This document shows positions 910 to 43,204 of a stretch of DNA of 43,204 nucleotides, piece after piece. Both the position numbers and the translations under genes were made by a program. Each line of letters begins with the position of its first letter. The stretch's first letter is position 1. Source of the DNA: a virus; UHGV virus genome UHGV-0865506. One strand, given 5' to 3'. The notes beneath the pieces are model-generated. The model worked only from the letters and a program-made list of their open reading frames with translations, searched no databases and was not told the DNA's origin.

Positions 910-944
910 AACCCTCACTCCTCTGTCTCGTTCCAATAAGTGAA

Positions 945-972
945 TAGTATCCTATTATGTTGGGGTGCGCAA
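945..972 (-). promoter_or_regulatory. sigma70-like promoter, TTGCGC-N17-TACTAT, member of the TACTATTCA family
   Basis: Reverse complement reads TTGCGCACCCCAACATAATAGGATACTATTCA; near-identical motif at 23504, 32569 and 42842. Confidence 0.45.
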
Positions 973-1902: not shown

Positions 1903-4170
1903 ATGTCCGATGTAATTTTATCCTACTCGTGGTCACGCCGCAACGCGCGAGCAGAGAAAAAGGATATAAACGTCAGAACCACACACACGGCAACACTGGA
2001 CGACCTGAAAGAGCTAATCAAGCCGCTCGATGCCGTTCGTGACGGGATTAACCCCAAGACTGCGGCCGGTTATATCACGGCCGCGTGCGATTCTACACAC
2101 AGCACCGTAAAAGACCCGGAAACCGGTGGCTTTAAACAAGCGCGTAAAGGCTTCTTCTATCGCTGTGACGCGTCTGTGAGCAAATCGTCGCTGGCGTATC
2201 TGGACTTCGACAGTGCAACACCGGAAGAGTACCAGGAAGCGGTGCGCCAGGTTAATCGCAGCCGCCGGGCGATGTGTCTCTACACCACGGCATCACATAC
2301 CGATGAGTCGCCGCGCTTTCGCGTCGTTATGCCGCTGGCCCGCCCGGTTGAGGGTGGTGATATCATCCGTGTTCGCCACGGATTGCTGGAACACTTCTTC
2401 AAAGGCATGGGTGCGGACCGCAGCGGGTTTACTCTGTCGCAGCCGATGTACCTACCACCGGTTGGCTCTCAGGTTATCTGGTCGCGCCGCAACGACCTGA
2501 TTGACCCGGACGAATTACTGGAAGGCGCCACCGCCGTTGACGTTAGCAGCGCATCGGATTACCAGATACCGGAAGAACTGCGCACAGCGTTTACAGACGC
2601 GTTCGAAGCGCTGGCGTTTGAGTACGGCGGCGTCATGACGCCGCGCGGCCTTAAGATGCCAGCTACACCGGAACACGCAGAGAACTACAGCGACCCTACG
2701 CCGCGCCCGGATGACTTCCTGCTGTGTTTCCCGCGTGAAGGGTACGAAGCGCCGAACGTAACCATGATTCACGACACCGACATTACGGCAACCGAAGGCA
2801 TGTCACCGAAAGAGGTGTGGAAATACGCGTGTGATGCGACCGGGCTGCCGTTCAGTGAAGTGGCTGAGGCTATAGGGTGGGGCGCGCGTGAATCTGTTTC
2901 ATGCAGCCTTGACGACCTGGAAGACGAGGATGACTCAGAGGAGGACGAGTTACCGGAACCGGTAAAGGCTGATTTCGTCGTTGAAGGGTACATGCCGTCG
3001 GATTGTATATGGGATATTGTCGGGGAATCAGGCACGTACAAATCGTTCTATACGCTGGGTATGATGTACCTTAGCGCGGCGGGATACCGGTTCGCAGGGG
3101 CTGATACCCAGCGTTGCCACCACTTCTATATCGACGGTGAGGGTGGTGCCGCTACGCGCACCCGTATCGACGCACTAGCGGCTAAATACGGCGTGGAAGG
3201 TAAAGATTATGTACACGTCATCGATATGGGTGAGGTCGGCAAACTGAAGAGCCTGATTAAGCTAATGCGCGAAACCGCGGGAGATGAACCTATTGGCATG
3301 GTCGCGTTCGACACACTAAACCAGACGCTGGCCCTGACGATTGATAAGTTCGACGAGAACAGTTCATCAACGGCAATCGGCATGGGTAAAGTTATCGCCA
3401 TCCTTAAAGAAGTGCGTGACGCGACTAAAGCCGCGGTAGGCGTTGTCCATCATACGCCGAAAGGCGGAAAGAAAGCCCGTGGCAGTGGGGCGCTGTATGC
3501 TGGTGTCGACGTGGAACTGACAATTGAACGCGCAACCGACCGCCAGATAAACGTATATCACTCTAAATTTAAGCACGGGCCTCAACAGAAGACGGTTGGC
3601 ATGGTGCTGGAGTCGGTACAGTTCCGTGAAGCACCGCCGCCGAAAGAGTACCGTGCGGTTGAGTTCATCGGTAGCACAGAGGAATACGGCACAATCGTAA
3701 ACCTCGACCTGCCTGAGCCGCACAAGGCGCTTGTGCTGATGCCGTGGGGCTTCGAGCCGTTCAAGACTGACGAGGAGAAAGAGCGGGAAGAAGGGCTGAC
3801 AAAGGAAGGTAAAGAAAACGTACGTAAAACCGTAGAGAACGCCGTCAACAGTTCGGAGGCCACGATACTGGCAGCGTTTGAGCTGGCAGAAGGAACCTAC
3901 AGCGGCAACGAAGGCATCACGGTAGCTGCAGCGAATAAGCTCGCGCAGTCTGACCCCAACGCGAAGGCGTTTAACTCCAAAGAAGCTATAGAACGCGGGA
4001 AGATTAAGAAAATGGTTGAGGCCGGGTATCTTGTTCCGGGTACTGACGAAAACAATCAGATAATCCCTGGTCGTTACAGGCTGAACACCCGAATAACTGA
4101 TAACAAGATTCCGAAGACAATATACGAACCGAATGAAATGTTGACAGTGACAGAGGAGGATTTGGAATGA
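1903..4170 (+). CDS. primase-polymerase (AEP-like) fused to a RecA-like helicase domain
   Basis: 755 aa. N-terminal LAYLDFDS (DxD) and TTASHTD (sxH) resemble archaeo-eukaryotic primase motifs; central GESGTYKS P-loop-like motif and VVHHTPKGG suggest an NTPase/helicase domain. Confidence 0.75.
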   Translation: MSDVILSYSWSRRNARAEKKDINVRTTHTATLDDLKELIKPLDAVRDGINPKTAAGYITAACDSTHSTVKDPETGGFKQARKGFFYRCDASVSKSSLAYLDFDSATPEEYQEAVRQVNRSRRAMCLYTTASHTDESPRFRVVMPLARPVEGGDIIRVRHGLLEHFFKGMGADRSGFTLSQPMYLPPVGSQVIWSRRNDLIDPDELLEGATAVDVSSASDYQIPEELRTAFTDAFEALAFEYGGVMTPRGLKMPATPEHAENYSDPTPRPDDFLLCFPREGYEAPNVTMIHDTDITATEGMSPKEVWKYACDATGLPFSEVAEAIGWGARESVSCSLDDLEDEDDSEEDELPEPVKADFVVEGYMPSDCIWDIVGESGTYKSFYTLGMMYLSAAGYRFAGADTQRCHHFYIDGEGGAATRTRIDALAAKYGVEGKDYVHVIDMGEVGKLKSLIKLMRETAGDEPIGMVAFDTLNQTLALTIDKFDENSSSTAIGMGKVIAILKEVRDATKAAVGVVHHTPKGGKKARGSGALYAGVDVELTIERATDRQINVYHSKFKHGPQQKTVGMVLESVQFREAPPPKEYRAVEFIGSTEEYGTIVNLDLPEPHKALVLMPWGFEPFKTDEEKEREEGLTKEGKENVRKTVENAVNSSEATILAAFELAEGTYSGNEGITVAAANKLAQSDPNAKAFNSKEAIERGKIKKMVEAGYLVPGTDENNQIIPGRYRLNTRITDNKIPKTIYEPNEMLTVTEEDLE

Positions 4171-4364
4171 GCGGTAAATTTAAAGAAGTAAGCGACGAAC
4201 TGAAAGGTAATAAATACACCAACCACAGAGGCGAAGTAGTAGAAGTTCTTAACGTAGTTCCTTATGGGCGCGGGTATCATGTTGTGTTCAGTTACACAGA
4301 GGCTTACAGCGTGTACTGCGGGTTAGGTAAGTTTCGCAAAAGATACCCGATAAAGGTGCAATAA
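4167..4364 (+). CDS. hypothetical protein
   Basis: Track ORF, ATGA overlap with the primase gene; preceded by the junction repeat ACAGAGGAGGATTTGGAATGAG. Confidence 0.5.
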   Translation: MSGKFKEVSDELKGNKYTNHRGEVVEVLNVVPYGRGYHVVFSYTEAYSVYCGLGKFRKRYPIKVQ

Positions 4365-4390
4365 AAAGAAAGGGGCGTTAAGCCCCTTCA
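4362..4390. terminator. rho-independent terminator, mainly minus-strand (bidirectional position)
   Basis: Hairpin AGGGGC-loop-GCCCCT with A-tract on the plus strand (T-tract on minus) just after the stop of the HTH gene 4378..4593. Confidence 0.55.
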
Positions 4391-4593
4391 CCGAACGCCA
4401 GCCACTTAGCATCTACTTGCAGCACTTCCGCCAGTTTAAACAGCGTTGCCGGGCGGACGTCCTGAGTTACCCCGAGCGCAAGCTGGTTAATCGCGCCCTG
4501 GGAAACCCCGGCCAGGACAGCCAGACGACGCTGGGAGATGCCGAGTTCTTTGCGGCGTTGTTCTACACGGATACCTAGTTCTGATGGTTGCAT
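4378..4593 (-). CDS. XRE-family (Cro/CI-type) helix-turn-helix transcriptional regulator
   Basis: ELGISQRRLAVLAGVSQGAINQLALG is a canonical HTH_XRE motif; divergent from the rightward promoter at 4658. Confidence 0.75.
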   Translation of the reverse strand: MQPSELGIRVEQRRKELGISQRRLAVLAGVSQGAINQLALGVTQDVRPATLFKLAEVLQVDAKWLAFGEGA

Positions 4594-4624
4594 GTCAGTT
4601 ACTCCTTAGTCAGTTGATACGTGA

Positions 4625-4653
4625 ATAGTACCATATTAATTATTTTAGAAAAG
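4625..4653 (-). promoter_or_regulatory. candidate promoter for the XRE regulator gene (TACTATTCA family, extended -10 TGGTACTAT, weak -35)
   Basis: Reverse complement contains TGGTACTATTCAC immediately upstream of the gene. Confidence 0.35.
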
Positions 4654-4657
4654 CCCA

Positions 4658-4687
4658 TTGACAACATGAATAGTTCGCTATTATAGT
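4658..4687 (+). promoter_or_regulatory. sigma70 promoter TTGACA-N18-TATAGT
   Basis: Consensus -35 and near-consensus -10; back-to-back with the regulator promoter. Confidence 0.55.
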
Positions 4688-4718
4688 TAACCAATACCAA
4701 ACGAGAGGAGAGAAACAA

Positions 4719-4922
4719 ATGTTAGAGAAATTTTTGAAATTACCTGAAAAACAGTTCGTTGCAGTATGGTTCATTGGTGGCAACCCATTTTCAATGACCT
4801 TCAACTGGGTTAATGGCGTTCTTAAGGCATACGACTTCACCGCAGATAAATTCGAAGCAGAGCACGGGATAACATCAGAATTTCTTTCTAAAGTAAACGC
4901 ACAGATTATTGAAACTAAATAA
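4719..4922 (+). CDS. hypothetical protein; N-terminus paralogous to 4938..5438
   Basis: Strong GAGAGGAGAG Shine-Dalgarno; begins MLEKFLKLPEKQFVA, matching MLEQFLKLLERFVVA of the next gene. Confidence 0.5.
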   Translation: MLEKFLKLPEKQFVAVWFIGGNPFSMTFNWVNGVLKAYDFTADKFEAEHGITSEFLSKVNAQIIETK

Positions 4923-5729: not shown

Positions 5730-6002
5730 ATGATTTATCAACTATACCGCGCCATCGACAGGCGGGATAACACCGAGGCGATATGGCTGTTGCGTGCGCC
5801 GTCCGGTGCACACCAGATGGAAGAGATGGCGTACTTAGGCAAAGTACCGCGGCCTAAAGATATAGGCCGTCACGTGTCGCAGATTAAGCGCACGACTTTC
5901 GCCAAACCTGACTTTTATGTCTTCGAGTCGATGTATGGATGGGCTATGCACCGCCAGCACCAGACACAACATTTAATTGACCAGTGGGAGAACAGGGTAT
6001 GA
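5730..6002 (+). CDS. hypothetical protein
   Basis: Track ORF 5715..6002 with start moved to the internal Met that follows the repeated TGAGGGTCGGAAATATG initiation region. Confidence 0.5.
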   Translation: MIYQLYRAIDRRDNTEAIWLLRAPSGAHQMEEMAYLGKVPRPKDIGRHVSQIKRTTFAKPDFYVFESMYGWAMHRQHQTQHLIDQWENRV

Positions 6003-7264
6003 TTTTAAAGGAACGCGGCGGCAATAACGACGTACACGCTTTACTGTCGCCGTCAGGCGCTAAGAAGTGGCTAAGTTGCGCCGCATCGCTGGCTTGTGAA
6101 AAAGATATTCCTAACACGTCGGGTAAATCCGCCGTTACGGGGACAGCGTGTCACACAATAGCTGAGGTACATCTAAACCAGTACATCAAAGGCACTGCGC
6201 TGCCGTTAGAGCGTGAAGTCGGTGCGTACGTGCTGGATGAGGGTAAAGGACAGATTAAGGCACTAATCAGTCCGATGAAAGGTGCGGTACTGATTACGGC
6301 TGACATGATTGAGCAGGTGCGCAAGTATACCGACTACTGTAAACCGATTATCGATGTAGCGACTTACGCCAAGCTGGAAATGCGTGTCAATCTTACTGAG
6401 GTATTGCATCCGGGATACATCCATAGCCCCGGTGGGAGGCAAGAAGAAATTCAAACCTTCGGAACCGCTGACCTTGTTGCCGTGCAGGAACTGGCCAACA
6501 CTGATGAGCACATGTTAATTATCGGCGACCTGAAAACCGGACGGCATCGTGTCGAAGCGAAAGAAAACAAGCAGCTTATGCTTTACGCTCTCGGTGTTTA
6601 TCGCCGACTCAAGAGACGTTATAACATAACAACCGTTCGTCTGGTCATCTTCCAGCCGTACGCGGGCGGTGCGTCGGAGTGGGACATCTCGGTTGAAGGT
6701 CTGGAACTGTTCGCTAAGTTCGCCCAGAAGCGCGCACTGTTAGCGCTTGATGCGTATTTCCGCGGTAAGAAGAACCTGAAAGCGTCGGACTTCAAGCCGT
6801 CGGTAGATGGTTGTCAGTGGTGTCGGTTCTCAGAACAGTGCGCAGCGCGTACAAAAACCGTTAACGCGGTACTGGCGGAAGAACTGGAGGACGACTTTGC
6901 TCTTGAAATGACACCTGAGCAACTCGTAGCTGAGTATGAGAAGTTGCCGTTGTTGCGCCAGCACATCGACAAGGTTGAGAAAGCTATGGCTGCCGCGCTG
7001 CATTCGGGTAAGAAAGTTCCGGGGTACAAGCTGGTTGAAGGTCGCCCGGGTAATCGTGCATGGAAAGACACTGATGCGGTATTCGAGAAGTACGGTACTA
7101 TGCTGCAAAAGGTAGTGCTCATGACGCCAACCGAAGCTGTTAAAGTTGTGCCGGAAGAAGAACTGAAAGACTTCATTACTCGTAAGCCAGGAGCGCCGTG
7201 CGTCACAACGGCAGATGACAAACGGCCTGAGTGGAATCAGGTAACAGAGGAGGATTTGGAATGA
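5999..7264 (+). CDS. PD-(D/E)XK nuclease, Cas4/RecB-like (DUF2800-type)
   Basis: N-terminal LSPSGAKKWLSC, central IIGDLKTG and C-terminal cysteine cluster CQWCRFSEQC are typical of Cas4-like nucleases; ATGA coupling to the upstream gene. Confidence 0.7.
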   Translation: MILKERGGNNDVHALLSPSGAKKWLSCAASLACEKDIPNTSGKSAVTGTACHTIAEVHLNQYIKGTALPLEREVGAYVLDEGKGQIKALISPMKGAVLITADMIEQVRKYTDYCKPIIDVATYAKLEMRVNLTEVLHPGYIHSPGGRQEEIQTFGTADLVAVQELANTDEHMLIIGDLKTGRHRVEAKENKQLMLYALGVYRRLKRRYNITTVRLVIFQPYAGGASEWDISVEGLELFAKFAQKRALLALDAYFRGKKNLKASDFKPSVDGCQWCRFSEQCAARTKTVNAVLAEELEDDFALEMTPEQLVAEYEKLPLLRQHIDKVEKAMAAALHSGKKVPGYKLVEGRPGNRAWKDTDAVFEKYGTMLQKVVLMTPTEAVKVVPEEELKDFITRKPGAPCVTTADDKRPEWNQVTEEDLE

Positions 7265-7761
7265 GTTTAGTTCGGGAGCGTTTCATTTATGAAAACGGGA
7301 AACTAATCTATCGCCACAATACAAAAAGAATGTTAGCTGGTCAGGAGGCAGGAAGCCTCCACCATTCAGGGTATGTGCAGATCTACATTAATCGTAAGTC
7401 CTACCAAAGAAGCCGTTTAATATGGGAGTACCACAACGGCCCTATACCTGAAGGGTTTGAGGTGGACCATATAAATGCGATAAGAAATGATGACAGGATA
7501 GAGAATCTCCAGTTAATCGCTCATAGCGATAATGTGGCTAAAGGCGGCATTCAAACCGGAAGAAGTCATAACAAAAGCGGGTACACTGGCGTGTTTTGGC
7601 GCAAAAGCCATGGTAAATGGCAGGCTGGAATTACCGTAAACGGGCAATATCGTTACCTTGGACTATTCGAAACTCCTGAACAGGCTAACGTGGCGAGAAA
7701 GAATTTTGAAAGTAATTTGCTAAAAGAAGTTGACTACCGAATAGCGAACTATTATAGTTAA
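7261..7761 (+). CDS. HNH homing endonuclease with AP2 DNA-binding domain
   Basis: HNH motifs (YHNGPIPEGFEVDHINAIRNDDRIENLQLIAHSDN) followed by an AP2-like segment (GVFWRKSHGKWQAGITVNGQYRYLGLFETPEQA). Confidence 0.8.
   Translation: MSLVRERFIYENGKLIYRHNTKRMLAGQEAGSLHHSGYVQIYINRKSYQRSRLIWEYHNGPIPEGFEVDHINAIRNDDRIENLQLIAHSDNVAKGGIQTGRSHNKSGYTGVFWRKSHGKWQAGITVNGQYRYLGLFETPEQANVARKNFESNLLKEVDYRIANYYS
7730..7758 (+). promoter_or_regulatory. sigma70 promoter TTGACT-N17-TATAGT embedded in the 3' end of the HNH gene
   Basis: Near-consensus hexamers; part of a 32-bp repeat shared with 11631..11660. Confidence 0.5.
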
Positions 7762-7821
7762 ATCACTGGCCGGGCAGTTCCCGGAGTAAACTTAAAATCT
7801 AAACTTAATGAGGGCTGAACT

Positions 7822-8448
7822 GTGGGACTGAAATTAAATCTGCGTAAAGTAAACACTGCATGGGTTAACGTATTTGAACGCGAAAAAGACCGTGAAAACG
7901 ATGATGGCTCAATCACTAAAGGCCAGTACAGCGCGACTATCATCCTGCAGTCTGGCCATGCTCAAATCGACGCACTCTACGACACTGTTTACGCTGTAGT
8001 TGAAGAAGCGTTAGGTGCAGCCGCCGCCGAGAAATGGATGAAGTCCAACTACGGCGAAGGTAAGCACATGGATAAATGCGCGATTAAAGATATTGCCGAG
8101 CGTGACAATCCGTTTGAAGACTTCCCTGAAGGCTTCTACTTCAAAGCGAAGGCACAGAAACAACCGCTGATTGTAACATCTAAAAAAGGTGAGACTCAGG
8201 TAGAGCAGGATTTCAATGTAGACGGCGAACAGATTGAAGGCGAACAGGTTTACAGCGGCTGCGTCGCTAACGTAAGCGTTGAAATCTGGTTCAGCCAGAA
8301 ATACAAAGTACTCGGTGTTAACCTGCTGGCAATTAAGTACGTTGGTGAAGGTAAAGCGTTTGGTGGTTCTAAAGTAGCTGCGAGTGTCGAGGACCTGGAA
8401 GACGACGAAGAAGATGAAGCACCGCGCCGCGAACGTCGTCGCCGTTAA
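7822..8448 (+). CDS. single-stranded DNA-binding protein-like (DUF2815-type)
   Basis: GTG start with GAGGG Shine-Dalgarno; acidic C-terminal tail DLEDDEEDEAP typical of SSBs; sits between Cas4-like nuclease and DNA polymerase as in the conserved replication module. Confidence 0.55.
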   Translation: MGLKLNLRKVNTAWVNVFEREKDRENDDGSITKGQYSATIILQSGHAQIDALYDTVYAVVEEALGAAAAEKWMKSNYGEGKHMDKCAIKDIAERDNPFEDFPEGFYFKAKAQKQPLIVTSKKGETQVEQDFNVDGEQIEGEQVYSGCVANVSVEIWFSQKYKVLGVNLLAIKYVGEGKAFGGSKVAASVEDLEDDEEDEAPRRERRRR

Positions 8449-8468: not shown

Positions 8469-8491
8469 AGGCCCTTCATTGGGCCTTTTTA
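8469..8491 (+). terminator. rho-independent terminator
   Basis: Hairpin AGGCCC-TTCATT-GGGCCT followed by TTTTT. Confidence 0.6.
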
Positions 8492-8502
8492 CCGGAGTCA
8501 GA

Positions 8503-8976
8503 ATGGAACATATAAAAGATTTTCTTAGTTATAACCGAGAAACCGGAATATTCACATGGATACAACCTACGTACAGACGAGGGAGACCCGGAGACATTGC
8601 GGGATGTATGAATAGTAGCGGATACTGGCGCATACCCTACATGGGTAGATACTACATGGCCCATAGGCTTGCTTGGTTTTTCGAGTACGGCGAATGGCCT
8701 GAGGGGCCTCTTGACCATATAAACCGTGACAGGTTAGACAATAGGATTTCTAACCTAAGGAAAGCAACCACAGCGGATAATGTGCGAAACGCTAAAAATA
8801 AGGGAGCTAGAACGGGAGTTAAGGGAGTAGTTAAAAACGGCAACCGGTTTTATGGGCGTGTACATTTTAACTACAAAAGTTATAACGCTGGTAGCTACGG
8901 AACTCTTGAAGAAGCAGAAAGCGCTGTAAAGAAATTAAGAGAAAAACTGCATAAGGAATTTTATTGCCATGACTAG
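8503..8976 (+). CDS. HNH homing endonuclease with AP2-like domain (second copy)
   Basis: HNH motifs (EGPLDHINRDRLDNRISNLR) plus AP2-like GVKGVVKNGNRFYGRVHF; start at internal Met with GGAG Shine-Dalgarno. Confidence 0.8.
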   Translation: MEHIKDFLSYNRETGIFTWIQPTYRRGRPGDIAGCMNSSGYWRIPYMGRYYMAHRLAWFFEYGEWPEGPLDHINRDRLDNRISNLRKATTADNVRNAKNKGARTGVKGVVKNGNRFYGRVHFNYKSYNAGSYGTLEEAESAVKKLREKLHKEFYCHD

Positions 8977-11294: not shown

Positions 11295-11389
11295 AAATTT
11301 ACTGGTTCTACGAAGAAGACTGTCGAATCTGCCCGCGCTGTGGTATCGAGCATACGAAACGGGAGGGGTGCATAGATGAGTACGCCTGA
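11291..11389 (+). CDS. small Cys-rich zinc-ribbon-like peptide (about 32 aa), candidate
   Basis: Hand-derived ORF MKIYWFYEEDCRICPRCGIEHTKREGCIDEYA, coupled by ATGA overlaps on both sides. Confidence 0.25.
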   Translation: MKIYWFYEEDCRICPRCGIEHTKREGCIDEYA

Positions 11390-11663
11390 GGGGCGCATCC
11401 AGAAATACGCAAAAGAGCGATTCGAGGCTATCGGCGGCCTCGTACGCAAATTGTCGTACGAAAATAGAGCGGGCGCTCCTGACCTGCTGGTAATTCTCCC
11501 CGGCGGCATCATCTGGTTCGTCGAGGTTAAGAAAGACGAAAACACGAAGCCAGACCCACACCAGCTACGAGAGCACGAGCGGATGCGTAAACGTGGAGCA
11601 AATGTTTTTGTCGTTGGTTCGTTTAAACAGGTTGACGACCTAATAGCGAACTATTATAGTTAG
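11376..11663 (+). CDS. VRR-NUC domain nuclease
   Basis: GAPDLLV...WFVEVKKD matches the PD-(D/E)XK core of VRR-NUC proteins; position after DNA polymerase is typical. Confidence 0.7.
   Translation: MSTPEGRIQKYAKERFEAIGGLVRKLSYENRAGAPDLLVILPGGIIWFVEVKKDENTKPDPHQLREHERMRKRGANVFVVGSFKQVDDLIANYYS
11632..11660 (+). promoter_or_regulatory. sigma70 promoter TTGACG-N17-TATAGT embedded in the 3' end of the VRR-NUC gene
   Basis: Part of the 32-bp repeat shared with 7730..7758. Confidence 0.5.
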
Positions 11664-11693
11664 CCATACACCAACAATATAAGGAATTGAGAA

Positions 11694-11885
11694 ATGAAAC
11701 ACGAATATGACCGTAAACCAGCACGTGACATCGTACCTGGCGACATGATTTTCAACGTTAAGACACGTCGCCCTGTTGCCGTTGATACGGTGTTCGTCGA
11801 GTCGAACGGTAAACTGGTTATCGAAGATGTAACTGGTAACGTTACGGCGTTCGGGCGTAAAGAGCTGGTGCTGGTGGCAAAATGA
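11694..11885 (+). CDS. hypothetical protein
   Basis: Track ORF with AAGGAA Shine-Dalgarno. Confidence 0.5.
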   Translation: MKHEYDRKPARDIVPGDMIFNVKTRRPVAVDTVFVESNGKLVIEDVTGNVTAFGRKELVLVAK

Positions 11886-23503: not shown

Positions 23504-23532
23504 TTGCACACCCCAATATAATAGGGTACTAT
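23504..23532 (+). promoter_or_regulatory. sigma70-like promoter TTGCAC-N17-TACTAT (TACTATTCA family) driving the rightward cassette
   Basis: TTGCACACCCCAATATAATAGGGTACTATTCA; near-identical to 32569..32600. Confidence 0.5.
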
Positions 23533-23562
23533 TCACTTACACCAACAATGAAGGGGTTTAAA

Positions 23563-32568: not shown

Positions 32569-32597
32569 TTGCACACACCAATATAATAGGGTACTAT
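32569..32597 (+). promoter_or_regulatory. sigma70-like promoter TTGCAC-N17-TACTAT (TACTATTCA family)
   Basis: TTGCACACACCAATATAATAGGGTACTATTCA, about 28 nt upstream of the 32625 gene. Confidence 0.5.
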
Positions 32598-32624
32598 TCA
32601 GTTAACTTAAACAGGAGATGGAAA

Positions 32625-42810: not shown

Positions 42811-42841
42811 CTTCCGTCTCTCCTCTCGTTTGTGTAAATGA

Positions 42842-42870
42842 ATAGTAGCCTATTCTATCTTAGCATGCAA
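42842..42870 (-). promoter_or_regulatory. sigma70-like promoter TTGCAT-N17-TACTAT (TACTATTCA family)
   Basis: Reverse complement reads TTGCATGCTAAGATAGAATAGGCTACTATTCA. Confidence 0.45.
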
Positions 42871-43139: not shown

Positions 43140-43204
43140 AAGTCACAAAGCCAAATAGTAAACTATTGACCTGTTACACCAGCGATGGCGGCTCTGGTAA
43201 CGGC

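What the first reader, a model, noticed from the sequence alone, without database searches (positions are those of the whole stretch)
7730..7761. 32-bp repeat placing near-consensus promoters inside the 3' ends of two genes and giving them the same C-terminus
GTTGACTACCGAATAGCGAACTATTATAGTTA (7729..7760) and GTTGACGACCTAATAGCGAACTATTATAGTTA (11631..11662) differ at two positions. Each forms TTGAC(T/G)-N17-TATAGT and ends in the stop codon of an HNH endonuclease and the VRR-NUC nuclease respectively, so both proteins end in IANYYS. A related promoter, TTGACA-N18-TATAGT at 4658..4687, shares the -10 context. The promoter sequence appears to have been copied together with the coding end, which suggests a recombination junction, possibly linked to acquisition of the HNH gene.
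Basis: seen in the sequence. Interest (0 to 1): 0.55.

Follow-up and report, generated by a model that had tools for sequence, protein, structure and literature searches.

The report
Conserved phage promoters overlapping gene ends
The 32-bp repeat is two copies of a promoter motif that every related Kagunavirus phage carries at the same places, and the shared protein tail arises because two genes read into that motif in the same frame, so the finding is real but ordinary.

Summary
7729..7760 and 11631..11662 match at 30 of 32 bases, and 4658..4687 is a third, looser copy. All three fit TTGAC-N17/18-TATAGT.

The window is a Kagunavirus (Guernseyvirinae) coliphage. The three sites, called P1, P2 and P3 here, sit at the same positions in about 40 relatives whether or not they carry the HNH gene. 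The common form is TTGACx-N4-6-AATAG-NNNN-CTAT-TATAGT. The arms never vary and the central four bases vary freely.

The motif has a stop codon in each of its three reading frames, so any gene reading into it ends within 11 codons. The HNH and VRR-NUC genes enter in the same frame, which gives both the tail IANYYS.

The repeat was not made when the HNH gene arrived. HNH-less phages with an empty slot (GZMU_E2010, Ec1-ASingh) already carry this P2 allele. P2 is, however, the fixed right edge of a slot that holds at least six alternative inserts. The HNH gene behaves as a mobile insert there: 96-98% identical between phages whose flanking exonuclease gene is 82-87% identical.

The motif was already reported by PHIRE for phage fBC-Eco01. 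No transcription start has been mapped. The palindrome may be the operator of the adjacent 434-Cro-like protein, which is inference only.

The parts
7729..7760 (+). P2: promoter-like repeat copy. -35 TTGACT at 7730..7735, 14-bp palindrome AATAGCGAACTATT at 7740..7753, -10 TATAGT at 7753..7758. Predicted transcription start near 7765. It would drive the ssDNA-binding gene.
   Evidence: Found at the same position in 40 of 41 sequences. Intergenic in HNH-less relatives.
11631..11662 (+). P3: promoter-like repeat copy inside the last 11 codons of the VRR-NUC-like gene. -35 at 11632..11637, palindrome at 11642..11655, -10 at 11655..11660. Predicted start near 11667.
   Evidence: Found in 34 loci and in Jerseyvirus LP31. 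Synonymous sites are frozen in the overlap. Annotated as 'phage promoter4' in the GenBank record of fBC-Eco01.
4658..4689 (+). P1: third family member with an 18-nt spacer. -35 TTGACA at 4658..4663, palindrome AATAGTTCGCTATT at 4669..4682, -10 at 4682..4687. It lies ahead of the first rightward early gene and faces away from the HTH gene.
   Evidence: Found in 32 loci.
7261..7761 (+). Free-standing HNH_3 + AP2 endonuclease gene (166 aa). Its ATG overlaps the exonuclease stop (ATGA). Its last 11 codons are the P2 sequence.
   Evidence: Pfam HNH_3 8e-18 and AP2 3e-5. phrog_99 covers aa 4-157 only. Rare: 98% identical only in Esher4 among GenBank phages. 96-98% identical between genomes whose exonuclease 3' half is 82-87% identical.
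11376..11663 (+). VRR-NUC-like endonuclease gene (95 aa). Its C-terminal residues VDDLIANYYS are encoded by P3.
   Evidence: phrog_93 4e-33 over aa 2-94. Pfam VRR_NUC reaches only 18.2 bits, below the 23.8 cut-off. The tail is homologous to VDALVAELF in Cornellvirus SP-031, which has no promoter there.
5984..7264 (+). DUF2800 / PD-(D/E)XK exonuclease gene. Its stop codon is the left edge of the variable slot.
7822..8448 (+). ssDNA-binding and annealing protein gene (Enc34 / Gp2.5-like), the first gene downstream of P2.
11694..11885 (+). Conserved 63-aa gene of unknown function, the first gene downstream of P3.
   Evidence: phrog_4879. Present after P3 in relatives.
4378..4593 (-). 71-aa HTH_3 protein resembling 434 Cro, transcribed away from P1. 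Candidate binder of the palindrome (inference).
   Evidence: Pfam HTH_3 1e-12. Best solved-structure match is 434 Cro, E 5e-7. 45% identical to the cro gene of lambdoid phage RCIP0098, whose CI-cro region holds ACAA-N6-TTGT operators.
4624..4637 (-). One-mismatch copy of the palindrome (AATAGTACCATATT), ahead of the HTH gene.
   Evidence: Corresponds to 'phage promoter5' in the fBC-Eco01 record.
7241..7265 (+). Left junction of the HNH insert: GTAACAGAGGAGGATTTGGAATGAG, holding a ribosome-binding site and the ATGA overlap. A 24-of-25 copy lies at 4147..4171.
23520..23533 (+). Second promoter-like context for the same palindrome (TTGCAC-N17-TACTAT), ahead of a small accessory operon. Similar sites are at 943..956 (-), 32585..32598 (+) and 42841..42854 (-).
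   Evidence: The palindrome occurs 12 times against 1.1 expected.

Best explanation
P1, P2 and P3 are three members of a conserved family of host sigma-70-type promoters that drive the rightward replication and recombination genes of a Kagunavirus. Their form is TTGACx, a 17-18 nt spacer and TATAGT. The spacer holds a 14-bp palindrome, AATAG-NNNN-CTATT, with invariant arms and a freely varying centre.

The genome is tightly packed, so upstream genes run into these promoters. The motif has a stop in each frame: TGA inside TTGAC, TAG inside AATAG, and TAA or TAG just after TATAGT. Any ORF entering it therefore ends within 11 codons. The VRR-NUC-like gene has overlapped P3 since before Kagunavirus and Jerseyvirus diverged.

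The HNH gene is a mobile endonuclease cassette. It was inserted between the exonuclease stop codon and the -35 of a P2 that already existed. It is translationally coupled to the exonuclease through an ATGA overlap and reads through P2 in the same frame as VRR-NUC reads P3. That is why both proteins end in IANYYS.

Shown here: the anatomy, the conservation, the empty-site alleles and the mosaic identity pattern. Inferred: that transcription starts there, and that the palindrome is the operator of the neighbouring 434-Cro-like protein, which would shut off or tune these promoters.
For: - **Identity of the phage.** The window is a Kagunavirus, 91% identical to fBC-Eco01.
- **Conservation.** P1, P2 and P3 were found at the same positions in 32, 40 and 34 of 41 sequences. 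AATAG and CTATTATAGT are at least 90% conserved, while the centre takes 5 to 8 different values per site. The same arrangement occurs in Jerseyvirus LP31, with P3 again inside the VRR-NUC end, giving ..QVDKLIEHYYI*.
- **P2 is intergenic without the HNH gene.** Fifteen loci's printed table, and two more whose P2 its pattern missed, have only 4 bp between the exonuclease stop and the -35.
- **The P2 allele predates the HNH gene.** Empty-slot genomes GZMU_E2010 and Ec1-ASingh carry it.
- **Stops in all three frames**. Other slot ORFs end at the TGA in TTGAC or the TAG in AATAG.
- **DNA-level constraint beyond coding.** 58% of degenerate codons vary synonymously in the VRR-NUC body, against 1 of 11 in the promoter overlap, among 12 genes.
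- **The HNH tail is incidental.** The family profile ends at aa 157. Homologues 55-69% identical, found in the same slot wherever the context was checked, all read the -35 as V/I-D and then differ.
- **Mobile-element signature.** The HNH gene is 96-98% identical where the exonuclease 3' half is 82-87% identical, with a sharp left edge.
- **Prior report.** PHIRE gave the consensus tgAATAGTa-ccTATTat-T for seven sites in fBC-Eco01 (PMC9825357).
- **Operator idea.** The HTH protein best matches 434 Cro. From my own knowledge, 434 operators are 14 bp with a non-contacted centre. This is consistent with the ACAA-N6-TTGT sites beside a 45%-identical cro gene.
Against: - No transcription start has been mapped in any Guernseyvirinae. 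The one RNA-seq study (PMC12645636) resolves only genes and coarse time classes.
- The sigma-70 hexamer score is not exceptional on its own.
- Within this window P2 and P3 differ at 2 positions, against 6 to 14 (most often 8) in the other genomes of that table. Some P3-to-P2 sequence transfer in the history of this P2 lineage cannot be excluded.
- Cornellvirus SP-031 has an orthologous HTH gene but no enrichment of AATAG-N4-CTATT. This weakens the operator inference or implies a changed specificity.
Confidence: 0.8

Rival explanations
1. One reading: the promoter and the coding end were copied from P3/VRR-NUC to the end of the HNH gene, or the reverse, when the HNH gene was acquired. The repeat would then be a recombination scar of that event.
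For: In the two HNH-bearing genomes's table, P2 is unusually close to P3 (2 and 4 mismatches, against 6 to 14 in the others). A third HNH-bearing genome, L044, also differs at 2. All HNH-bearing genomes share one identical P2 allele.
Against: - The same P2 allele occurs with an empty slot in GZMU_E2010 (31 of 32 bases, P2-P3 distance 3) and, with the CGAA centre, in Ec1-ASingh.
- P2 exists at this position in all relatives.
- The left spacer TACCG and the G before AATAG are P2-type features. The TTA ending occurs in empty-slot alleles L011, L023, L026 and L031.
- Similarity does not extend past the 32 bp on either side.
Confidence: 0.04
2. Short-patch gene conversion from P3 to P2, independent of the HNH gene, produced the P3-like P2 lineage. 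Promoter copies would then exchange sequence within the genome (concerted evolution).
For: Seven of the nine family-variable positions agree between P2 and P3 in this window. The phage encodes its own exonuclease and annealing-protein pair, which could use short homologies.
Against: The P2 centres seen in relatives form a chain of single-base steps, TTAG > TAAG > CAAG > CAAA > CGAA, so ordinary drift is enough. The non-centre differences are P2-like. In most genomes P2 and P3 stay 6 to 14 mismatches apart, which argues against frequent homogenisation.
Confidence: 0.12
3. The repeats act mainly as portable recombination sites that shuffle accessory genes, like the PeSL cassettes of T4-type phages. 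Promoter activity would be secondary.
For: P2 is the invariant right border of a slot that is either empty or holds one of six unrelated inserts. Compared with the empty-slot genome L023, the window's sequence diverges to the left of the palindrome's right arm and is the same to its right. PeSLs are described in PMC2839356.
Against: Each cassette ORF is confined to one slot in 40 loci, so no movement between promoter copies is seen. There is no terminator stem-loop, and the 5-bp A/T palindrome folds weakly. P1 and P3 are not flanked in the same way. A border role follows naturally from any conserved sequence next to a variable one.
Confidence: 0.15
4. The motif is a promoter for a phage-encoded RNA polymerase, as stated in the fBC-Eco01 paper.
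For: The wording of PMC9825357. PHIRE is often used to find such promoters.
Against: No RNA polymerase gene is annotated in fBC-Eco01, LP31 or SP-031. The sites carry canonical -35 and -10 hexamers at sigma-70 spacing.
Confidence: 0.02

Closest known systems
PHIRE-predicted 'phage promoters' of Kagunavirus fBC-Eco01 and VB_EcoS-Golestan (PMC9825357, PMC7203180; GenBank OM272052 regulatory features)
   Same: Same motif: the published consensus tgAATAGTa-ccTATTat-T equals AATAG-N4-CTATT plus its flanks. About seven copies per genome. The P3 homologue is annotated inside the nuclease gene.
   Different: Those papers give only a consensus and assign it to a phage RNA polymerase that the genomes do not encode. 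They do not describe the -35/-10 architecture, the invariant arms with variable centre, the overlap with coding ends or the cassette slot. P1 and P2 themselves are not annotated in that record.
Operators of phage 434 Cro/cI and P22 c2 (14-18 bp palindromes with a non-contacted central 4 bp, lying over promoters)
   Same: A 14-bp palindrome with conserved 5-bp arms and a variable 4-bp centre, placed inside core promoters. A 71-aa protein whose best structural match is 434 Cro is encoded next to P1 and faces away from it.
   Different: The half-site is AATAG rather than ACAA. The sites are spread over at least eight promoters of a virulent phage rather than clustered in an immunity region. No cI partner is present. 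Binding is untested, and the operator properties of 434 and P22 come from my own knowledge.
PeSL (promoter-early stem-loop) cassettes of T4-type phages (Arbiol et al. 2010, PMC2839356; PMC4122927)
   Same: Repeated strong sigma-70-like early promoters that border variable accessory ORFs and can serve as crossover points.
   Different: No terminator stem-loop here. There are only three copies in the replication module. No exchange between copies and no mini-circles were detected.
Free-standing HNH homing endonuclease genes of phages (HNH_3/AP2 type, such as TLS EndY-like and I-HmuI-like enzymes)
   Same: The domain make-up, an intergenic insertion between conserved genes, a patchy distribution, and much higher identity than the flanking genes.
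   Different: Cleavage and homing have not been tested. This lineage consistently ends inside the downstream promoter, reading the -35 as Val/Ile-Asp.

Membership tests
Sigma-70-type bacterial or phage promoter | -35 TTGACA-like and -10 TATAAT-like hexamers separated by 17 +/- 1 nt | tested here: met
   10 to 11 of 12 matches at 17 or 18 nt spacing for all three sites.
Sigma-70-type bacterial or phage promoter | Lies upstream of, and points the same way as, a gene with a ribosome-binding site | tested here: met
   P1 precedes the ATG at 4719, P2 the GTG at 7822 and P3 the ATG at 11694, with 5'UTRs of about 25-57 nt.
Sigma-70-type bacterial or phage promoter | Conserved beyond the neutral expectation | tested here: met
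   Hexamers and arms are at least 90% conserved in 32 to 40 genomes whose flanks are 82-93% identical. Synonymous sites are frozen in the P3 overlap.
Sigma-70-type bacterial or phage promoter | A transcription start mapped about 7 nt after the -10 | not testable with these tools
   No start-site data exist for this subfamily. The only RNA-seq study is at gene level.
Kagunavirus PHIRE motif (tgAATAGTa-ccTATTat-T) | Matches the published consensus | tested here: met
   AATAG-N4-CTATT occurs perfectly at 8 sites in the window and 7 in fBC-Eco01.
434/P22-type Cro/CI operator | A 14-18 bp dyad with conserved outer bases and a variable centre | tested here: met
   Arms are invariant, and the centre takes 5 to 8 values per site.
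434/P22-type Cro/CI operator | A cognate HTH_3 Cro/CI-family protein encoded nearby | tested here: met
   The gene at 4378..4593(-) has HTH_3 at 1e-12 and best matches 434 Cro.
434/P22-type Cro/CI operator | The protein binds the dyad and represses the promoter | not testable with these tools
   This needs a gel-shift, footprinting or reporter assay. Co-variation was inconclusive: Jerseyvirus keeps the dyad with a 52%-identical protein, while Cornellvirus has a 42%-identical protein and no dyad enrichment.
PeSL-like recombination cassette | Promoter joined to a terminator stem-loop | tested here: not met
   Only a 5-bp A/T stem. Folding energies for the three promoter segments are -2.4 to -11.7 kcal/mol, no U-run follows, and the extended pairing is not conserved.
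PeSL-like recombination cassette | Copies flank variable ORFs, and exchange occurs between copies | tested here: inconclusive
   P2 borders a slot with six alternative inserts. No cassette is seen at more than one copy.
Free-standing HNH homing endonuclease gene | HNH catalytic domain with a DNA-binding module | tested here: met
   HNH_3 at 8e-18. AP2 at 3e-5, which is below Pfam's cut-off. phrog_99 at 2e-51.
Free-standing HNH homing endonuclease gene | Sporadic presence at a fixed site, more conserved than its flanks | tested here: met
   Present in the window, Esher4 and two Logan contigs only. 96-98% identical against 82-87% for the adjacent exonuclease segment.
Free-standing HNH homing endonuclease gene | Cleaves the allele that lacks it and converts it in co-infection | not testable with these tools
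   This needs enzyme assays or phage crosses.
VRR-NUC nuclease | Pfam VRR_NUC domain above the gathering score | tested here: not met
   18.2 bits against a cut-off of 23.8. The protein does match phrog_93 'endonuclease' at 4e-33 and is labelled VRR-NUC in relatives. The name is therefore plausible but not established here.

The most novel reading that the evidence does not exclude
The 14-bp dyad AATAG-N4-CTATT is the operator of the 71-aa 434-Cro-like protein. Through it, one small repressor would control the whole non-structural gene set of a strictly virulent phage subfamily: at least eight promoters in two different arrangements. The freely varying central 4 bp would set a graded order of shut-off. 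The same conserved promoter-operator units would double as the fixed borders at which mobile genes such as the HNH cassette are exchanged.
Probability: 0.35. Interest if true: 0.45.

Novelty: already known. Interest (0 to 1): 0.2.

Why it matters
It matters little beyond annotation.

- The repeat is a conserved early-promoter motif already listed for closely related phages. The identical protein tails are a side effect of compact gene packing.
- Gene callers and readers should expect short identical C-termini wherever ORFs run into a repeated regulatory motif. They should not take them as evidence of domain transfer.
- The published attribution of this motif to a phage RNA polymerase is unsupported, because no polymerase gene is annotated in the three complete Guernseyvirinae records read here (fBC-Eco01, LP31, SP-031).
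- Kagunavirus phages are being developed for therapy. A defined accessory-gene slot, bounded by the exonuclease stop and P2, and a possible Cro-type early-gene switch would be useful for engineering them.

Tried and rejected
- **Sigma-70 score as evidence.** Not significant against Markov resamples, so I relied on conservation instead.
- **RNA or DNA hairpin role for the palindrome.** The 5-bp A/T stem is weak. The stronger extended pairing at P3 (-11.7 kcal/mol) depends on downstream bases that vary among relatives. Rejected.
- **Known RNA families.** No Rfam match anywhere in the window.
- **5'UTR structure after P2.** No conserved structure by RNAalifold, and a z-score of 0.31 for the single sequence.
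- **Cassette movement between the helicase slot and the exonuclease slot.** No ORF was found in more than one slot.
- **Exact-match scans of IMG/VR for the window's P2 allele.** Nothing found. A BLAST search of GenBank phages then found the decisive empty-slot alleles.
- **Co-variation of the HTH protein with the dyad.** Recognition-helix differences are uninformative. No alternative enriched dyad was found in promoter positions in Cornellvirus SP-031.
- **The RNA-seq paper on Kagunavirus K1B4.** Too coarse to place transcription starts.

Full report
**1. The observation**

7729..7760 is GTTGACTACCGAATAGCGAACTATTATAGTTA and 11631..11662 is GTTGACGACCTAATAGCGAACTATTATAGTTA. They match at 30 of 32 bases, and no such pair appeared in 100 shuffles.

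Each reads TTGAC(T/G)-N17-TATAGT. A third site, TTGACA-N18-TATAGT, lies at 4658..4687. These are the three best sigma-70-like matches in the first 20 kb.

The HNH gene runs from ATG 7261 to TAA 7759..7761. It has an HNH_3 domain and an AP2 match (the AP2 score is below Pfam's cut-off). The 95-aa nuclease gene runs 11376..11663. Both read the repeat in one frame and end VDYRIANYYS* and VDDLIANYYS*.

Hexamer matching alone is not exceptional: 9 sites with at least 10 of 12 matches, against 6.6 +/- 2.4 in Markov resamples. The case for function has to rest on conservation.

**2. What the sequence is**

The window is a Kagunavirus (Guernseyvirinae) coliphage. Its best match is fBC-Eco01 at 91% identity, and hundreds of Escherichia and Salmonella relatives were found.

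I collected 36 IMG/VR loci, several GenBank relatives and two Logan contigs. I call the three sites P1, P2 and P3. They were found at the same positions in 32, 40 and 34 of 41 sequences.

- P1 lies ahead of the first rightward early gene and faces away from a small HTH gene.
- P2 lies between the DUF2800 exonuclease gene and the Enc34/Gp2.5-like ssDNA-binding gene.
- P3 lies inside the last 11 codons of the nuclease gene.

The family consensus is TTGACx-N4-6-(T/G)AATAG-NNNN-CTAT-TATAGT-T. AATAG and CTATTATAGT are at least 90% conserved. The central four bases take 5, 8 and 8 different values at P1, P2 and P3. The spacer therefore contains a 14-bp dyad with fixed arms and a free centre.

Jerseyvirus LP31 has the same design, and its P3 again lies inside the nuclease tail (..QVDKLIEHYYI*). 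The overlap is therefore older than the split between the two genera.

Among 12 alignable nuclease genes, 58% of degenerate codons vary synonymously in the gene body. Only 1 of 11 does so in the promoter overlap, and that one lies in the free centre. This shows a DNA-level constraint on top of the coding constraint.

The nuclease tail is real protein. The PHROG profile covers it to residue 94. Cornellvirus SP-031 has a homologous tail, VDALVAELF, without a promoter there. In some relatives the stop after the -10 is lost and the tail simply runs on for 6 to 19 more residues.

**3. Why the two proteins share a tail**

The motif carries a stop in every frame.

| Frame | Stop | Position |
|---|---|---|
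| 3 | TGA | inside TTGAC |
| 2 | TAG | inside AATAG |
| 1 | TAA or TAG | just after TATAGT |

Any ORF that enters the motif ends within 11 codons. Other ORFs that occupy the slot upstream of P2 end at the TGA or the TAG. The HNH and nuclease genes both happen to enter in frame 1, a 1-in-3 chance.

The HNH family profile stops at residue 157 of 166. Homologues 55-69% identical lie in the same exonuclease/ssDNA-binding slot where I could check the context (Cornellvirus SP-031 and an ENA contig). All of these homologues read the -35 as Val/Ile-Asp and then diverge: EVDWILLK, SIDWILVK, SIDLKIA, GIDGRLK. The HNH tail is imposed by the promoter and is not a transferred domain.

**4. Is the repeat a scar of HNH acquisition?**

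No.

- In HNH-less relatives P2 is intergenic, 4 bp after the exonuclease stop (GAATAAAGTG|TTGAC). Fifteen loci's printed table, and two more whose P2 its pattern missed, show this empty state.
- P2 and P3 are unusually alike in this window. They differ at 2 positions, against 4 in the other HNH-bearing genome of that table and 6 to 14 (most often 8) elsewhere.
- A BLAST search of the 101 bp around P2 then found two HNH-less genomes with an empty slot and this same allele. GZMU_E2010 has TTGACTACCGAATAGCGAACTAcTATAGTTAAATCACTGG. Ec1-ASingh has TTGACACCTGAATAGCGAACTATTATAGTTAAATC, followed by the window's exact 5'UTR. The allele is therefore independent of the HNH gene.
- Its non-centre features are P2-like. 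TTGACT-AC occurs in L032. The G before AATAG is a P1/P2 feature. The TTA ending occurs in empty-slot alleles L011, L023, L026 and L031.
- The P2 centres seen in relatives form a chain of single-base steps, TTAG > TAAG > CAAG > CAAA > CGAA. Drift is enough to explain the centre.
- A short P3-to-P2 conversion at some point cannot be excluded, but it is not needed.

**5.

P2 is the fixed right border of a variable slot. The gap between the exonuclease stop and the -35 falls into six length classes, plus the HNH-bearing state.

| Gap (bp) | Content |
|---|---|
| 4 | empty |
| 151 | 52-aa ORF |
| 174 | 57-aa ORF |
| 183 | 60-aa ORF |
| 185-188 | 67-aa ORF |
| 229-244 | 78- to 83-aa ORF |
| 465 | HNH gene |

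The HNH cassette behaves as a mobile element.

- It is 96-98% identical between the window, Esher4 and a Logan contig. The exonuclease 3' half in the same genomes is only 82-87% identical.
- Its left edge is sharp, inside the last codons of the exonuclease gene.
- On the right, compared with the empty-slot genome L023, the window's sequence diverges to the left of the palindrome's right arm and is the same to its right.

This is ordinary cassette exchange at a conserved flank. I found no cassette at more than one slot, so there is no evidence for PeSL-style shuffling between promoter copies (PMC2839356).

**6. How it probably works**

The following is inferred.

P1, P2 and P3 are host-polymerase promoters that re-initiate transcription along the rightward replication and recombination operon. 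The HNH gene is transcribed from P1 and is translationally coupled to the exonuclease gene through an ATGA overlap.

The dyad has the geometry of a 434/P22-type operator.

- The adjacent 71-aa HTH_3 protein has 434 Cro as its best solved-structure match, at E 5e-7.
- That protein is 45% identical to the cro gene of lambdoid phage RCIP0098. The CI-cro region of that phage holds ACAA-N6-TTGT dyads.
- The same dyad occurs in a second arrangement, TTGCAC-N17-TACTAT, in which the dyad overlaps the -10. These sites lie ahead of small accessory operons at 943(-), 23520(+), 32585(+) and 42841(-), and, with one mismatch, ahead of the HTH gene itself at 4624(-).
- In total the dyad occurs 12 times against 1.1 expected.

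A Cro-like repressor acting on all these promoters is my preferred mechanism, at about 0.35-0.4. Against it, Cornellvirus keeps the HTH gene but shows no enrichment of the dyad.

**7. Relation to what is known**

The motif is already published. PHIRE found seven copies in fBC-Eco01, with consensus tgAATAGTa-ccTATTat-T (PMC9825357), and seven in Golestan (PMC7203180). The GenBank record of fBC-Eco01 marks the P3 homologue inside the nuclease gene.

That paper assigns the motif to a phage RNA polymerase. No such gene is annotated in fBC-Eco01, LP31 or SP-031. No transcription-start mapping exists, and the K1B4 RNA-seq study is at gene level.

**8. Verdict**

This is a conserved, previously noted promoter family that overlaps gene ends in a compact phage genome, with a mobile HNH gene inserted just upstream of one copy.

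- Interest: 0.2.
- Novelty: already known.
- The only part with modest upside is the untested operator reading.

Noticed in passing
window 4147..4171 and 7241..7265: A second junction repeat, GT(G/A)ACAGAGGAGGATTTGGAATGAG, matches at 24 of 25 bases with none expected by chance. It makes the primase-helicase and the exonuclease both end in VTEEDLE*, and it places a ribosome-binding site and an ATGA overlap ahead of an optional small ORF (the 65-aa ORF at 4167..4364 and the HNH gene). The helicase tail has these codons in all relatives. The exonuclease has them only when its slot is occupied. Empty-slot alleles encode VSEEDLE with different codons (GTTAGTGAAGAAGAT..TAA). This could be convergence on a ribosome-binding site or an old copy of the helicase end.
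   Followed up: partly
window 943..956(-), 23520..23533(+), 32585..32598(+), 42841..42854(-), 4624..4637(-), 43154..43167: The AATAG-N4-CTATT dyad also occurs in a second promoter-like arrangement, TTGCAC-N17-TACTAT, in which the dyad overlaps the -10. Read in the direction of transcription, it is the reverse complement of the P1-P3 version. These sites lie ahead of small accessory operons and the HTH gene. The copy at 43154 has no obvious promoter context.
   Followed up: partly
window 7764..7777: The box CACTGGCCGGGCAG lies at about +1 to +14 of the predicted P2 transcript, in the 5'UTR of the ssDNA-binding gene. It is almost invariant across Kagunavirus, Jerseyvirus, Cornellvirus and a more distant ENA contig, while the rest of the UTR varies. 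No significant fold was found (z-score 0.31). Its function is unknown. It could be a translational or autoregulatory site for the ssDNA-binding protein.
   Followed up: partly
L032 about 5880..5915 and L006 about 5880..5915 (upstream of P2): Two of the alternative slot inserts end with a copy of the exonuclease 3' end (..AAGAAGATTTAGAATAAAGTG). The insert is therefore flanked by an imperfect direct repeat. The 60-aa ORF of L032 ends in the exonuclease tail (..KEDLE*), while the 57-aa ORF of L006 ends ..PKKLK*. This is the same kind of shared C-terminus through a duplicated junction.
   Followed up: no
window 8479..8976: A second HNH_3 endonuclease gene (165 aa) lies between the ssDNA-binding gene and the DNA polymerase gene. 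It is present in some relatives, such as fBC-Eco01, and absent in others, such as fFiEco03.
   Followed up: no
L005, L006, L011, L014, L017, L019, L021, L023, L025, L037 (P3 region): In about a third of relatives the stop codon after the P3 -10 is lost (TATAGTAAG.. or TATAGTAGT..). The nuclease then gains 4 to 19 extra residues read from the 5'UTR of the next gene, which shows that the extreme C-terminus is dispensable.
   Followed up: yes
literature: PMC9825357: The fBC-Eco01 paper attributes the seven PHIRE motifs to a 'phage-encoded RNA polymerase'. Neither its GenBank record nor those of LP31 and SP-031 contains an RNA polymerase gene.
   Followed up: yes
window 11376..11663: The 'VRR-NUC' label rests on a Pfam match below the gathering score (18.2 against 23.8 bits). 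PHROG calls the family endonuclease or Holliday-junction resolvase.
   Followed up: yes
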